NCBI GenBank assembly: GCA_965235115.1
Contig: OZ249443.1
Location: forward strand, 15,438,001-15,502,000
DNA from: Laetmonice hystrix
Taxonomy: Eukaryota
Length of the DNA stretch: 64,000 nt
Direction of reading: 5' to 3'
Part shown: piece by piece, positions 1-49,200 of the stretch
How positions within the stretch are numbered: the stretch's first letter is position 1
How the letters are laid out: every line of letters begins with the position of its first letter
Made by a program: the position numbers

Positions 1-3000
1 AGTTAGTTTTCTTTTTATAGCGGAGGGTCACTGAGACGCTGCAGACTTGGATTATGTGAGGTCAGGTGTTCTCAGAGAGGTACGGGTCCCGGGTTGAACC
101 TACAGATCGTATTGTACCGTATACTGTATAGGGTCTGCTGCCTAAATCTGTTCTAGTCTTTGATCGCAGCTAAAGACTATAAGAAACGAACATTTTACAT
201 CCATTCACCATTGGATATAGAATTCAAGTCGCCCCTACTATTCTGTGGCCTATAATCCCTCCGAGATCATAGAATTGATTCCTTAATATCGATTACAGTT
301 CAATACGTAAGTCTCAAACGGTCGCTCCCTGGGGCCCGTCCGTCGTTTGAATGACCTCCGGTAGGTGGCGTGACGTCGGCTTTGCCCAATTTGTACCAGT
401 GAAGTGGTCGGAGGTGTTTTCTGGTGTCAAACTCTATGTTTGGGGTTATTAAGGTCACTGATCAATGACAGCGTTCGATCTCCACTTCTTTATCTATTCC
501 ATGTACACCTCTTATTACATATAATAGACAGAGCTCACAGTTCTATCCATACTGGTTTATGGAAGTACATGTATATGTTGCAGGCTGATACCTTTCTAGG
601 TCAACTTCACAAATCTAAATCTATATCTCTCAGTAACAGTACAGTAACGAACAATAACGAAGAACTAGAACCAAAGGCTTGAATTAGACACCATTACCAG
701 GTATAGAATTTCCCTGCAGAAAGTTCCCTTGAGTCATTCCGATGGGGAAAAAATTCCTTCAAAAATGAAAATAAGTATTTGATCTGAGTATAAACCTTGT
801 GTCCCAGTACCCTGGTACACGTAAATTGAGACCCTAGTATACCCACCTCCTGCTGCAGGTTGACCTTTCCTCCCGGCTGTGACCCCACGTGTTGTCTTCC
901 CTCCAGGACGGTACGGTCGAACACGTTCCACAGTACTGAGATCTGACATGGAGTCACTGATATCACTGTCCATACCCACGGCTTGACCCGAGTCGGTGTG
1001 AACCTTGGCTGGGAGTCGGTTACCTGGACGACCACTCGATGTAACTCCTTGTCTTAACCTGGACAGATTATTGTTCACAATATTCACACTTATGTTAGCT
1101 CTAAAGGGGGTAAGTATTAGCATAGACCTGGAAACAGTGTGTTTCCATGTCTGTGGTATTAGTTAATATCATTGTGAGGGAAATATAGTCTGGTAATATT
1201 GTGTCACCCGCGGCAGTGTCTCTCTCGTATCAAACTGGGCTTCTTCTATTCTGACAGGTCCATGTGATTGGGTCGGCATACAGTGAGATTCAAAGTACGT
1301 TTATCCTAAAACCGAATAACTTTTACATACCAACAATCTGTTAGGAATGGGGAGACGAGGGAAGGTGAGGTTATTGGGGTCAATGTAAGGTGGGTAGCGT
1401 CACTATAAGACTTGAGAATCACTGATATATATCGTATCTATAGCACGGCAGTACAGAGTTGGGGAGGGGGAGAGTCCGCAAAGTGCACCAACAGTGACAA
1501 TTTCACAAATACGAATTTATGAATCCAAGATACACATGTACCGGTAAACCCATTCAACTTTCCACAAGCCGTTGCTAGGGACGGTAATTCAGTAGCTTCA
1601 GTAACTTCAGAACTTTCACGTCACCCAGGGCAGTGTGATCAGCACGTATCTGGTGTCGTCATCTGCTGGCCGGAGGGGGGGGGGGGGGGTTGAGGGACCA
1701 ACAGTGTCAGTAATTATTTGGCCCATTTCACGATTTTCAAGGACATTCCAGGCCTTCAATTTATTTGTGCAAATTCAAGGCCTTCAATGTCCCGCGGAGA
1801 CCTTGACCGCAGAGAACCAATCGACATGGAGAAATAGTTTTTAAAATATAAGAAGCGAATAGAAACAGTGCACTGCAAATGAAGCCTGCACGGCAATTCT
1901 GTGAGACCAGCCATAAGTATTACCTGCTCCCAACCCATTGCATATCAAAACTCTTCCAAACTATTATTGAGAAACTTTCTATTTCAAGCAACGCAGCCAA
2001 CACCACAAAAGCTTCTAAGTTTACCCACGCTTCAACTACATTAACGTGTCCTAATATGTCACACTCACATTACAATATGCAAATTACCTGTCCTTATCTG
2101 TACCCTGATTGGCTGCTTTCCTACCGGCCTCTGAACCCACGTACCCACTGTCCTTGTCTTCACGTTCGCGACCTCTAGGAAACCCTGCCAGTCGGTCCTG
2201 TCTGATCGACTTGTCAGATTTACGTGAAGGAGAAGGCGTTACGCTGCCATAACTGTCATACTTCCTCCCACTCTGGGGCTGTTTGAAAAAATGACAGAGA
2301 AAAAACGTTAACCAGATTATGTTAACCATTTACAGTCTGAAGTACGCTGTGCAGATGACGAGATCCATAGCCAAGTGTCGGGAGGGGGGCTAACCTGTTC
2401 CATTAAAAAAAAGACGATACAACGACCCATTTTTTAGCCATCAGTTTCCAATAAAGAATCGCACGATGCAGAAATAAAGAATCACGCTAAAGGCGGTTTG
2501 GGGGAGGGGGTTGGCAGTTTTCATTTTTAAAAAACCTCACCATTTTGTTTGGGAGACGTTTGGACTGCCGCCGTTGTCTTGTTGTCGAGTCTGTAGCCGT
2601 TGAATTGTAGTCACTGCTCACCTTGGGATCATCACGTTTACCTGACAAAGATCAGAGAAATATCTGACGACTGTTTTATATTACCGAGAAGTTTCCATCC
2701 CCTAAATACGCTAACCTGGCGCCAATAGTAAATGGTTTAAATTGTAATCAAGTGTATGTTTTCCCAGTGTTTACCTCTGGAATGTCTTCCAATGGACAGA
2801 TCACTTTCGTTCAGGCCTGGTAAACTGTCACTCTCCTGACCCTGAAATAAATGACCACAATCAGAACCTCATACACCCTACGACTATCTTACCTTTCAAA
2901 AGGTAGAAGGCTGAGGCATGCTTACAAAAACTGTCCTGACAGCGACCAAATAGCATTGTCACTCATACATGAGATGAGAGAGTGCCTCAATGGAGAAAAA

Positions 3001-46200: not shown

Positions 46201-49200
46201 ATGTTACAGGTGCAGTAATAGAACTAACTATTGTTGGCCAGTTACTGGAGTTAATTATGTTCATACCTGTCAATGATGCTGATTTTGAAGAATTTACATC
46301 AGCTGAATATAATGATTCCGTTGTCAGGGTGACGGTGTCCACTCAGAAGCCTGTGATAATAAACGACGTCCTTCCGGAACATTCCAATAACGACGACGGT
46401 TCTACGACGTCCAGTATGAAGCAGCAGACAACCGTTACCAATGGCAACGGTTCCGAGGATAGGCAGATATCGTCTGCTGGCAGCGCTCACGTCTCGCGAC
46501 GAAACAACGCGAGAGTTGACTATCGCCGGGACCGGTCAAGCTCTCCAAGGTTACGTGTCGATAGGAGGGAGCTTAGGAAACAATCTCCGAATCGTAAGAC
46601 AGACCCAAGTCCGACACGGGGAAAAGGGCGTGAGCAAAGTCCTCATAGGAGAGGGGAGAGGCATAATCATGGCACAAAGGTAACAATGAGGGAGAAAAAG
46701 GAAATGGACTAAGTCTAACGGATTAATGAGTAAAATTTAATGGTTCCTGGTACATGTATATAATTTACCCGAAAAAAGTCGCTTTAAGTTGAATTTAAAA
46801 TTGTTGATTTTAGATTTTTAAGATGAAATATAGGCCTACAAGGAATTGACTTCAAAATACCGGTATCATGAATGCTCGAGCTGAAACGATCCATCGATAT
46901 ATCGGTGTATCGTGTCAGCTCTAACGGATACACATCTTACTTAGATCAGTAAATGTGAAAGTGGTGAAAGTTTTAATACAGTTGCCTTGGAGGAAATCAA
47001 TATTCATAGGCAGACCTGTCGAGTGCCAAAGTTTAAAATGAGGCATACAGGGATACGTGATCATCACTTGATAGCAGTTACCTTGGGAACACCCAGTTTA
47101 GCCATTTCGTACCTTTAACATAACATGAACAGAATGAACAAACGCTGAAATGAGGGTTGGAATAGACGGCCTGACCTGTTTGATGTATTGGAGTTTTCCA
47201 TGGCAACCTATCTTTGCTTTTTGCAATATTAATGAAGAAGTCGACTCAGACGTGATTAAGTAAACTTATAAGTTTGAATAATCCTATACGAGGATTAATT
47301 CATCAATTGCGGAGGCCCGAAAAAGCGTATGGTTCGATATGGCCTTCGCCCGGAAATTTATCATACGAGGAATATTCTAGGGGGACCGTGCGTTAAATTT
47401 CATACTTTCTTGGGAGAGGGAGGGACCCTGTTGCCCCACCCCCTTCCTCGTAACGTTCAGCCTCTGGAGGGGTGATGGGAAGCACTTAGGCCAAGCTGGT
47501 ATTATGACCCATGTACAACAATTTGCGATATGGGAATATGAAGAAGGTGTAGGGCCACTCTGAGATGACAAAAACAGCGTTGGCAAATCGTGGCTAATGG
47601 GAAATAAATGTCAGTTAGGAAGGCCTAACACGTGGGCTTCGCTTGAAAAACGCGTGGACCAACTTTAGCAAACAAAACACTTAAAAAGTCATTTCAGATG
47701 GATCTGCAGCAGGTCAGTGTTGGTAGAAGAAAACTTAATACCAGTCCTGTGCCCTACCTAATGTAGAGAGGCATATAAATAACTTTGCGTTTCGATACAA
47801 ATGTTCGTTATGGCAGTTAATGCGTGTTGGGTGCAGTGAGTTGAGTGCAGTGACGTCACCACCTCAGTATATGACCACACCCATAGCGTCCCTACCACAC
47901 CTAACACAGGTTACAGATAAACCAGTCGGTCTGTAGGGCCAGGTGGTAAGACAGGTCGCAGGTACTTCACCCAGGTTACAGGTGGACAGCAGCCAGGAAT
48001 GGTAGTTAAACTTGACAGGATTCTGGATTGATTTCTTAGAATTCATATTTGAAACCATTGGGCAGGATCATGTATTGATTTGGTATGGTTGATAGTTGTA
48101 GGGATGGTTTCGTAGTGATGATTGCTGTACCATTGGAGAAGATAGCATGGATTGAATTTTGTAGGATTCATAATTGAACTAGTGGCCAGGATCATTGAGT
48201 CGAGGGTAGCAATTAGCAGTTAGGGTTAGCACGGGGCTAGGGATAATGAGACCTTTTTTTGGGGGGGGGGGGGGGGGGGGCAGAGGCAGGGCGGAGGTCT
48301 GGAGAACGGGACTAGGTATTAGGATTAGGGTTTTGGCTGGGAAGAGTGACAGATTTTTAATTTTTCACAAACATTTCATGGTGATGTTGCCATTAGGAGG
48401 ACCTACATGTTAACCCTATTTATCAACCTTTTATTGTTTCCCCCCAGGAGTCACCCCCGGGACGAGAGTCGATGGCCTCCCGACACCACCTCCTCAACGT
48501 GACCATCTACAAGACCAAACCCACACTGGGAATCGCCATCGAGGGAGGCGCCAACACCCGCCAACCCCTGCCCAGGATCATCAATGTGCAGGTCAGCCAC
48601 AAGAGGCATTGGGGTGTCTTGTTTGCTTCGGCCATCTCCCCGCCCCCGCCCCTATAAAAAAAAGGGGAATATTAGGAGCTTTTGTGTGATTACAGGCCTA
48701 CAGCTTTATGTATGCGTGCCTTTTTCACCAGTCACATTTAAAATAGAGTTCCTAGGTGTTGTGTTTTTTTGGCTTTTGTAGGCCTACGTGTTATTTAACT
48801 TTATTTTAAGTAGATGTGTAGTGTGACCATAATAAGACTTTGAACTCTGTTTTGTTTTGTTTTGTTTCGCCTGAAGCCGGGTGGTTCGGCCTATGACTCC
48901 GCGGGTCTGAAAGTAGGTCAGATCATCGTGGAGGTCAACGGAAGGTCAATGAAGAATCTCGAACATCGCGAGGCAGCGAGAACGATCGCTGAGGCCTTTA
49001 AGAACAAGTCGAACAACAAGATGGATCTCGTGATCGCTCAACCGGTCAGTAAGGGAAACACATGAGAAAGGATCGGTCATGATGACGAAAGTAGAGAAAT
49101 GGCCAAAATCTGTACGGTAGAAATGGCCAAATCTGTGAACCAGAGACTCAGACAGACGGTAGAAATGGCCAAAAATCAGTGTGCACAAGGGGATACGGAC

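What the first reader, a model, noticed from the sequence alone, without database searches (positions are those of the whole stretch)
847..49065. AKNA-whirlin microsynteny shared with vertebrates, but head-to-head here
Seen: an AKNA homologue and whirlin are adjacent and divergently oriented, with ATGs 11.5 kb apart. Known (from recall, to verify): human AKNA and WHRN are immediate neighbours at 9q32 on the same strand. AKNA acts at centrioles and whirlin at the periciliary/stereociliary Usher complex. Inference: an ancient bilaterian gene pair kept by shared cis-regulation, with a lineage-specific inversion of one partner.
Basis: partly seen in the sequence, partly recalled or inferred. Interest (0 to 1): 0.65.

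Follow-up and report, generated by a model that had tools for sequence, protein, structure and literature searches.

The report
AKNA-like and whirlin genes, head-to-head
An invertebrate-type genome piece carries a relative of the centrosome gene AKNA next to the hearing/vision scaffold gene whirlin, the same two neighbours as in mouse but with whirlin turned round; this is probably an inherited gene neighbourhood, and nothing here shows that shared regulation holds it together.

Summary
On the minus strand lies an AKNA-family gene. Its ATG is at 14137, and five collinear blocks match a profile of named AKNA proteins. On the plus strand lies a whirlin gene, from its ATG at 25603 to its stop at 49063-49065. 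It has the full HHD1-PDZ1-PDZ2-HHD2-linker-PDZ3 order, and each domain's best solved-structure match is the same-position whirlin domain. The two ATGs are 11,466 bp apart and the genes diverge. No other gene was found between them.

The left end of the finding (847) could not be verified, because the 3' third of the AKNA-like gene was not located. Mouse Akna and Whrn are neighbours about 11.6 kb apart, with the 3' end of Whrn facing Akna, so whirlin's orientation differs here.

Inheritance of the linkage from a common ancestor, followed by a local inversion, is the most likely reading. It rests on two lineages only, because no eukaryotic genome collection was available to survey others.

"Kept by shared cis-regulation" is not supported:
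- The spacer is long and 22% tandem repeat.
- Orientation is not kept between lineages.
- An ascidian cell atlas puts WHRN and AKNA in different cell clusters.

At best this is one more candidate conserved microsyntenic pair. Interest is modest.

The parts
14059..14137 (-). AKNA-like gene, first coding exon (ATG 14137-14135; ends in phase 1 at CAGG|GTAAGT)
   Evidence: The phase fits exon 2 exactly. No homologue covers this exon, so the start codon is inferred.
13833..14093 (.). 43-bp tandem array of 6 copies that repeats the end of exon 1 together with its 5' splice site
9653..11799 (-). AKNA-like gene, large exon 2 (about 715 codons, disordered, Ser/Asp/Glu-rich)
   Evidence: ORF 9635-11815. 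It found 15 relatives at E<=1e-3 among 1.84 billion representatives, the best at 57% identity. tblastn results are and splice sites. There is no Pfam match and no match to the AKNA profile.
8428..8683 (-). AKNA-like gene, exon 3, carrying the family's coiled-coil motif (LLQKYARAENTIDSLRIGA)
   Evidence: Profile A1 finds named AKNA proteins at about 1e-12 to 1e-14. The AKNA profile hits at E 1.2e-18, positions 434-481.
7594..7806 (-). AKNA-like gene, exon that corresponds to the Pfam AKNA domain (PF12443) region
   Evidence: Sea-urchin P0023 residues 599-670 align here at E 6.1e-7, and its PF12443 stretch is 621-686. The AKNA profile hits at E 7.8e-8, positions 582-652. Pfam itself gives no hit on this exon alone.
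7190..7411 (-). AKNA-like gene, candidate exon (ORF limits)
   Evidence: AKNA profile E 0.022, positions 646-701. The hit is collinear but weak.
5337..5441 (-). AKNA-like gene, coiled-coil exon (aligned part; ORF 5280-5564, donor AAG|GTGAGA near 5337)
   Evidence: AKNA profile E 0.0018, positions 750-779. Three sea-urchin proteins each align at E 0.002.
5433..6335 (.). 82-bp tandem array of 11 copies that repeats the 3' splice site and the first ~60 nt of the exon above
2087..2329 (-). AKNA-like gene, possible downstream exon (contains DSGYVGSE)
   Evidence: AKNA profile E 0.37, positions 916-929. It is collinear but not significant on its own.
14138..25602 (.). Spacer between the two start codons (11,465 bp). 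No gene was found in it. It holds a 66/134-bp satellite at 15295-17434 and a 35-bp array at 21811-22190. A CpG-rich stretch lies at 23.5-25.5 kb, just upstream of whirlin.
   Evidence: (Pfam: 0 families for the 4 ORFs scanned that lie in the spacer).
25603..26340 (+). Whirlin exon 1: HHD1 and most of PDZ1
   Evidence: Pfam: HHD (CCM2_C) 4.7e-7 and PDZ 6.8e-11. Best PDB hit is 1uez, KIAA1526 PDZ, at 3.4e-14. Atlas score 0.94 to a cluster named 'Whirlin'.
32384..32509 (+). Whirlin exon, first half of PDZ2
   Evidence: ORF and splice sites, phase 0 at both ends. It was not searched on its own.
32759..33929 (.). Tandem array (units of 66-214 bp) whose unit repeats the 3' splice site of the next exon
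33926..34134 (+). Whirlin exon, second half of PDZ2
   Evidence: Best PDB hit is 1uf1, KIAA1526, at 2.6e-20; the next hit is 3.5e-6. Pfam PDZ 4.3e-6.
37946..38131 (+). Whirlin exon, HHD2
   Evidence: PDB 6fdd 'Whirlin' at 1.4e-16 is the only hit under 0.1, out of 4 hits at E<=1. Pfam USH1C_N scores 3.6e-4, below its cut-off.
46164..46712 (+). Long ORF in the right place and strand for whirlin's disordered linker (candidate exon)
   Evidence: ORF only. No Pfam match.
48448..48591 (+). Whirlin exon, first half of PDZ3
   Evidence: ORF, GLGI-type motif and splice sites in phase 0.
48877..49065 (+). Whirlin last exon: second half of PDZ3 and the stop codon (49063-49065)
   Evidence: PDB 1ufx KIAA1526 at 8e-14; Whirlin 6y38, 6y9n and 6kz1 at 1.1-1.3e-13; PDZD7 at 6.7e-8.

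Best explanation
Two real, unrelated protein-coding genes sit head-to-head. One is an AKNA-family gene: in vertebrates AKNA is a protein of the mother centriole's subdistal appendages that tethers gamma-tubulin ring complexes. The other is whirlin, an HHD/PDZ scaffold of the Usher-2 periciliary and stereociliary complex. The same two genes are neighbours in mouse, so the neighbourhood is most likely inherited from the common ancestor of this animal and vertebrates. A local inversion has turned whirlin relative to AKNA: here the 5' end of whirlin faces AKNA, in mouse the 3' end does. Nothing here requires selection. The pair may simply never have been separated.

Shown: gene identities, orientation, spacing and the mouse arrangement. 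Inferred: common ancestry of the linkage, the inversion, and the absence of a regulatory tie.
For: AKNA identity:
- A profile of the motif exon found 155 proteins at E<=1 among 8000 candidates scored. Of the 120 listed, 89 carry AKNA or AT-hook names by my count, including sea urchins.
- Sea-urchin AKNA-like proteins align collinearly to three exons.
- My 89-protein AKNA profile gives five collinear minus-strand hits as the top five of 2171 ORFs.
- In a 28-row, 75-column tree the window falls in an 8-row clade (SH-aLRT 99) of unnamed relatives, apart from the urchin, cnidarian and vertebrate groups.

Whirlin identity.

Geometry.

Mouse:
- Akna lies at 63028159-63064388 and Whrn at 63075944-63156985.
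- BAC279 carries only the C-terminal short Whrn isoform together with Akna, Orm1-3 and Col27a1.
- A sheep 1-Mb window also holds both genes.

Background: 593 bilaterian conserved pairs are known, and orientation is fully kept in only 15-25% of human pairs that are not 5'-5' (PMC3514665 passages). A change of orientation is therefore usual for such pairs.

From general reasoning, not a call: chance adjacency of one given pair among thousands of genes is of the order of 1e-4 to 1e-3. That is well below the share of neighbour pairs retained from the ancestor.
Against: - Only two lineages are compared, and the animal that owns the window is not identified.
- No intermediate lineage could be examined, so independent juxtaposition is not excluded.
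- Table 2 of PMC4546649 lists only genes expressed in kidney and liver, so 'immediate' neighbourhood in mouse rests partly on my recall.
- No call shows the strand of mammalian AKNA.
- The first exon and ATG of the AKNA-like gene have no homologue support.
- Its 3' end is not found.
- Pfam's own AKNA model does not hit any single exon.
Confidence: 0.6

Rival explanations
1. One reading: the pair is held together by selection. Either the two genes share regulatory elements (co-regulation in ciliated or sensory cells), or one gene's introns or the spacer hold enhancers for the other, as in a genomic regulatory block.
For: - The divergent 5'-5' arrangement seen here is the orientation enriched among conserved pairs: 54.8% against 26.7% in human.
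- Both proteins act at or near the centriole or cilium base, according to passages in PMC8615511 and the 2026 bioRxiv preprint for AKNA and to the ascidian preprint's passages, which list WHRN among hair-bundle/stereocilia markers.
- Whirlin has long introns (exon map).
- A CpG-rich stretch lies just upstream of whirlin.
Against: - The ATGs are 11.5 kb apart, far above the <1 kb signature of bidirectional promoters quoted.
- 22% of the spacer is tandem repeat.
- The orientation is not the one in mouse.
- In the ascidian endostyle atlas WHRN marks the hair-cell cluster, while AKNA+ cells are a separate terminal haemolymphoid cluster.
- Neither gene is a developmental transcription factor of the kind that anchors regulatory blocks.
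- No conserved non-coding element could be tested.
Confidence: 0.2
2. Coincidence: the two genes became neighbours independently in this lineage and in vertebrates. If both lie on the same ancestral linkage group, within-chromosome shuffling could have helped.
For: - Only two lineages show the linkage.
- The orientation differs between them.
- Three searches found no paper that reports the pair as conserved.
Against: From general reasoning, not a call: the chance expectation for one named pair is low. Spacing is similar in both, 11.5 kb between ATGs here and 11.6 kb between the genes in mouse, but that is weak evidence.
Confidence: 0.15
3. Assembly artefact: the two genes were joined wrongly across the repeat-rich spacer.
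For: The spacer holds a 2.1-kb satellite and other arrays.
Against: The window has no gap. About 1.2 kb of unique sequence flanks the satellite on the left and about 4 kb on the right before the next array. Nothing else points to a join.
Confidence: 0.03

Closest known systems
Vertebrate AKNA (microtubule organization protein AKNA, formerly 'AT-hook transcription factor') and sea-urchin AKNA-like proteins
   Same: The coiled-coil motif KYA.AENTID.LR.GA is shared. So is a second block that corresponds to Pfam PF12443 and a third coiled-coil block, all in the same order.
   Different: - Pfam PF12443 does not reach significance on any single exon.
- The N-terminal ~720 residues match only 15 unnamed relatives.
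- No AT-hook core was found in 219 minus-strand ORFs.
- The C-terminal third of the family profile is not found in the window.
Vertebrate whirlin (WHRN/DFNB31)
   Same: The order HHD1-PDZ1-PDZ2-HHD2-long linker-PDZ3 is the one described for whirlin in PMC8048344 (passages). Each domain's best solved-structure match is the same-position whirlin domain.
   Different: The predicted C-terminus (...SKGNT) is not a type-I PDZ-binding motif, whereas PMC8048344 says whirlin and Dyschronic end with one. It keeps HHD1, unlike insect Dyschronic and PDZD7.
Conserved ancient microsyntenic pairs (Irimia et al. 2012, PMC3514665)
   Same: Two unrelated genes are adjacent in distant animal lineages, and the arrangement here is 5'-5'.
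   Different: The pair is seen in two lineages only. Orientation is not kept. Neither partner is a developmental regulator. Whether the pair is in that paper's list is unknown, because its supplements were closed; the main text does not name AKNA or DFNB31 (one search counts).
Mouse Akna-Whrn neighbourhood on chromosome 4 (human 9q32)
   Same: The same two genes are neighbours, and the gap is about 11.6 kb.
   Different: In mouse the 3' end of Whrn faces Akna. Here the 5' end of whirlin faces the 5' end of the AKNA-like gene.

Membership tests
AKNA family | Pfam PF12443 (AKNA domain) at or above its gathering score | tested here: not met
   0 families for every left-gene exon or ORF scanned singly. 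The model does work on named members: 4 of 7 proteins scanned are at or above the 28.1-bit cut-off, 1 is below it and 2 cnidarian proteins give none. The joined exons were not scanned, by instruction.
AKNA family | Homology of the PF12443-equivalent block to named AKNA proteins | tested here: met
   Exon 7594-7806 aligns to sea-urchin residues 599-670 at E 6.1e-7, overlapping that protein's PF12443 stretch 621-686. The 89-protein AKNA profile hits at E 7.8e-8.
AKNA family | Conserved coiled-coil motif upstream of the AKNA domain | tested here: met
   E 1.2e-18 to the AKNA profile. 89 of the 120 listed hits of profile A1 are named AKNA or AT-hook. That this motif is diagnostic for the family is my inference from these hits.
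AKNA family | Same order of blocks along the protein | tested here: met
   Profile positions 434-481, 582-652, 646-701, 750-779 and 916-929 fall in descending window coordinates on one strand.
AKNA family | AT-hook (the motif quoted for human AKNA in PMC8615511) | tested here: not met
   No R-G-R-P-type core was found in any candidate exon among 219 minus-strand ORFs. The single match lies in a tandem-array ORF. The 3' part of the gene may lie outside the window.
AKNA family | Localisation at subdistal appendages and gamma-TuRC tethering | not testable with these tools
   Known for vertebrate AKNA from passages read.
Whirlin | Domain order HHD1-PDZ1-PDZ2-HHD2-linker-PDZ3 | tested here: met
   The architecture is as described in PMC8048344.
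Whirlin | Closer to whirlin than to PDZD7 or harmonin | tested here: met
   - PDZ3: whirlin 8e-14 to 1.3e-13, against PDZD7 6.7e-8.
- HHD2: whirlin only.
- PDZ2: 2.6e-20, against the next hit at 3.5e-6.
- Atlas: 0.94 for Whirlin, against 0.88 for PDZD7.
That KIAA1526 is whirlin is recall, in line.
Whirlin | C-terminal type-I PDZ-binding motif | tested here: not met
   The predicted end is ...VSKGNT followed by the stop. This depends on the last exon being the true one.
Conserved ancient microsyntenic pair | Adjacency in several distant lineages, beyond chance | tested here: inconclusive
   Seen in this window and in mouse. No other lineage could be examined.
Bidirectional-promoter pair | Divergent genes with under 1 kb between their starts | tested here: not met
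   The ATGs are 11,466 bp apart. Transcription starts are unknown and could be closer.

The most novel reading that the evidence does not exclude
AKNA-whirlin is a selectively maintained, pan-bilaterian (perhaps older) regulatory neighbourhood. It would tie a mother-centriole appendage protein to a periciliary scaffold in ciliated sensory cells, with the AKNA promoter side always facing whirlin and the shared elements lying in the spacer or in whirlin's long introns.
Probability: 0.12. Interest if true: 0.55.

Novelty: new member of a known kind. Interest (0 to 1): 0.3.

Why it matters
If further phyla show the same pair, it adds one more ancient gene neighbourhood to the few hundred already known. 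This one would involve two cilium- and centriole-related genes, one of them a deafness-blindness gene.

Two smaller points follow from the work:
- The AKNA family reaches well beyond vertebrates, to sea urchins, cnidarians and a clade of unnamed invertebrate-type sequences.
- Pfam's AKNA model misses the more distant members. A motif-centred profile finds them, which is useful for annotation.

As it stands, this is an ordinary pair of correctly recognised genes with an untested evolutionary story.

Tried and rejected
I scanned ORF by ORF instead.
- The search for homologous proteins gave nothing for the large exon among longer proteins. For the motif exon alone it gave one unnamed hit among 91 candidates. 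The profile search did work.
- The Atlas search on relative P0003 gave a best score of 0.79 (DUF4614), below any useful level.
- Pfam found no family at E<=0.1 in the 4 scanned spacer ORFs, in 1 ORF inside AKNA intron 1 or in 2 ORFs inside whirlin introns; two of the three ORFs right of whirlin gave only weak chance-level matches (E 0.075 and 0.011, both below their cut-offs).
- Rfam at gathering threshold gave 0 matches.
- A lone 'tRNA-Tyr(ata)' call lies inside a 20-bp tandem array. I take it for false.
- I looked for fused AKNA+whirlin gene models as a sign of same-strand neighbours. There were 0 hits among 123 stored proteins.
- The pheasant protein named 'whirlin isoform X1' is AKNA-like. 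It has no PDZ and no PDB match, so it is only a naming oddity.
- No paper in the library reports AKNA-WHRN microsynteny in its main text. Supplements were closed.
All searches used single exons or ORFs, or database proteins.
No neighbourhood survey was possible.

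
Full report
**What the window is.** The window is 64 kb with no N and 43% G+C. It has spliced genes with GT-AG introns and many minisatellites. I do not take it for human. Its proteins are at most about 50-56% identical to vertebrate ones, and only over short conserved blocks. The animal could not be identified.

**The right-hand gene is whirlin.**
- The ORF 25588-26385 holds an ATG at 25603. Pfam finds a harmonin-homology domain (CCM2_C, 4.7e-7, residues 8-89) and a PDZ domain (6.8e-11).
- Its best solved-structure matches are KIAA1526 PDZ chains 1uez (3.4e-14) and 1uf1, followed by PDZD7.
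- PDZ2 is split between 32384-32509 and 33926-34134. The second half hits 1uf1 at 2.6e-20, with the next protein at 3.5e-6.
- The exon at about 37946-38131 hits the solved HHD2 of 'Whirlin' (6fdd, 1.4e-16). That is the only hit under 0.1.
- PDZ3 is split between 48448-48591 and 48877-49065. The last exon hits KIAA1526 1ufx (8e-14) and 'Whirlin' 6y38, 6y9n and 6kz1 (about 1.1-1.3e-13), with PDZD7 at 6.7e-8.
- The ESM Atlas puts exon 1 nearest a cluster named Whirlin (0.94, 201 of 256 features).
- The order HHD1-PDZ1-PDZ2-HHD2-linker-PDZ3 is the whirlin architecture described in PMC8048344 (passages). Insect Dyschronic and PDZD7 lack HHD1; this gene keeps it.
- The predicted C-terminus (...SKGNT) is not a type-I PDZ-binding motif, unlike whirlin as described there.
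- That KIAA1526 is whirlin is my recall, consistent.

**The left-hand gene belongs to the AKNA family. This needed more than Pfam.**
- Pfam finds nothing in any single exon.
- The 726-aa ORF 9635-11815 is disordered. It has only 15 relatives at E<=1e-3 among 1.84 billion representatives: 10 at <=1e-10 and 2 at <=1e-30, the best at 57% identity.
- Three of the six relatives printed (P0003, P0004, P0007) continue into a coiled-coil motif. That motif is the window's next exon, 8683-8428.
- A profile of that region (A1) found 155 proteins at E<=1 among 8000 candidates scored. Of the 120 listed, 89 carry AKNA or AT-hook names by my count, 21 have no usable name and 10 have other names.
- The named hits include many vertebrates at about 1e-12 and the sea urchins Lytechinus, Strongylocentrotus and Diadema. 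Cnidarian proteins (Stylophora, Clytia, Hydractinia) are among the differently named hits.
- Pfam PF12443 is found in 4 of 7 such proteins at or above its cut-off.
- Sea-urchin P0023 aligns collinearly to three window exons: 8692-8543, 7806-7594 and 5441-5337. The middle alignment (E 6.1e-7) overlaps the protein's PF12443 stretch.
- I built a profile from 89 non-human AKNA-family proteins (88 named AKNA or AT-hook, plus the Diadema protein with a precomputed PF12443 flag) and ran it against all 2171 ORFs of 20 aa or more on both strands. The five best hits are all on the minus strand and in the order of the profile:

| Window ORF | Profile positions | E-value |
|---|---|---|
| 8414-8722 | 434-481 | 1.2e-18 |
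| 7567-7839 | 582-652 | 7.8e-8 |
| 7190-7411 | 646-701 | 0.022 |
| 5280-5564 | 750-779 | 0.0018 |
| 2087-2329 | 916-929 | 0.37 |

- The large exon and the last third of the profile find nothing.
- A quick tree of the motif region (28 rows, 75 columns) puts the window in an 8-row clade of unnamed sequences (SH-aLRT 99). Sea urchins, cnidarians and vertebrates form separate groups, and a second chondrichthyan paralogue sits inside the vertebrate group. The alignment is short, so this only suggests that the gene is a pro-orthologue of vertebrate AKNA.
- No AT-hook core was found.

**Geometry.**
- The likely first coding exon of the AKNA-like gene starts at ATG 14137 and ends after 14059 in phase 1.
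- Exon 2 begins at 11799 and completes the split codon in frame with the long ORF. That is good internal support, but no homologue covers exon 1.
- The two ATGs are 11,466 bp apart, and the genes point away from each other.
- The spacer holds no recognisable gene. It contains a 2.1-kb 66/134-bp satellite and a 35-bp array, together 22% of its length.
- CpG observed/expected is raised (0.87-1.07) only in the 2 kb upstream of whirlin.
- Transcription starts are unknown.

**Comparison with vertebrates.**
- Table 2 of PMC4546649 lists mouse Akna at 63028159-63064388 and Whrn at 63075944-63156985, a gap of 11.6 kb. That table covers only genes expressed in kidney and liver.
- PMC11225360 states that BAC279 overexpresses only the C-terminal short whirlin isoform and contains Akna, Orm2, Orm3, Orm1 and Col27a1. 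So the 3' end of Whrn faces Akna in mouse, while the 5' end faces it here.
- A sheep Hi-C paper lists both genes in one 1-Mb window.
- That human AKNA and WHRN lie on the same strand at 9q32 is recall. PMC8615511 confirms only 9q32 for AKNA.
- If the recall is right, inverting whirlin alone converts one arrangement into the other, and the AKNA promoter side faces whirlin in both.

**Interpretation.**
- Retention of an ancestral linkage is the best reading. Chance adjacency of one named pair is rare, while hundreds of ancient pairs are known: 593 bilaterian pairs in PMC3514665.
- The same paper shows that orientation is fully kept in only 15-25% of human pairs that are not 5'-5'. An inversion is therefore unremarkable.
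- The claim that shared cis-regulation holds the pair has no support here. The spacer is long and repeat-rich, and the orientation differs between lineages.
- The one relevant expression source I found is an ascidian endostyle atlas (preprint passages). It reports WHRN as a marker of a hair-cell-like cluster and 'AKNA+ cells' as a separate terminal cluster of the haemolymphoid region.
- AKNA's known role is at subdistal appendages, where it tethers gamma-TuRC. Whirlin's is in the Usher-2 complex. A functional link between the two is conjecture.

**What stayed unchecked.**
- Neighbourhoods in any other non-vertebrate genome.
- Supplementary pair lists of microsynteny papers. Supplements were closed, and they may already list this pair.
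- In main texts, three searches found no report of AKNA-WHRN microsynteny.

**Verdict.** The identities of both genes are now on firm ground. The evolutionary inference is plausible but rests on two lineages, and the regulatory inference is unsupported. This is at most a new member of a known kind, of modest interest.

Noticed in passing
13833-14093; 5433-6335; 32759-33929: Three tandem arrays each abut an exon, and their repeat unit contains a copy of that exon's splice site plus the exon edge. The first has a 43-bp unit (6 copies) carrying the donor of AKNA exon 1. The second has an 82-bp unit (11 copies) carrying the acceptor and the first ~60 nt of the exon at 5441. The third has 66-214-bp units carrying the acceptor of the whirlin PDZ2b exon. 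The 43-bp and 82-bp units are not multiples of three. By a rough estimate about one such coincidence would be expected by chance, so this may or may not mean anything.
   Followed up: partly
P0113, no window coordinates: A pheasant protein named 'whirlin isoform X1' (1175 aa) is AKNA-like. It has the AKNA motif and a sub-threshold PF12443 match, but no PDZ and no PDB match. This is probably a naming or merging slip between neighbouring genes in that annotation.
   Followed up: partly
8428-8683 and relatives: The AKNA coiled-coil motif is present in cnidarian proteins that carry unrelated names ('serine/arginine repetitive matrix protein 2-like', 'micronuclear linker histone polyprotein-like') and no PF12443 hit. 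The family seems wider than its Pfam model shows.
   Followed up: partly
P0128, P0100: Cartilaginous fishes have a second AKNA-like paralogue. It groups inside the vertebrate clade (pair support 97) beside their regular AKNA.
   Followed up: no
15295-17434: A 2.1-kb satellite of 66/134-bp units (32 copies, 91-93% matches) lies in the spacer. It is open in several frames on both strands and gives long spurious ORFs.
   Followed up: partly
55249-56184 (55366-55446): ARAGORN calls a tRNA-Tyr with anticodon ATA inside a 20-bp tandem array of about 47 copies. Rfam finds no tRNA there at gathering score, so it is probably a false call.
   Followed up: partly
49066-64000: No convincing coding ORF or Pfam match was found in the 15 kb to the right of whirlin. 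A 103-bp array (7 copies) lies at 62352-63138. The next gene on that side is not in the window.
   Followed up: partly
P0121 (print): The Strongylocentrotus AKNA model shows a short internal duplication (LLQKHAQ twice) just before the motif. It could be real or a gene-model artefact.
   Followed up: no
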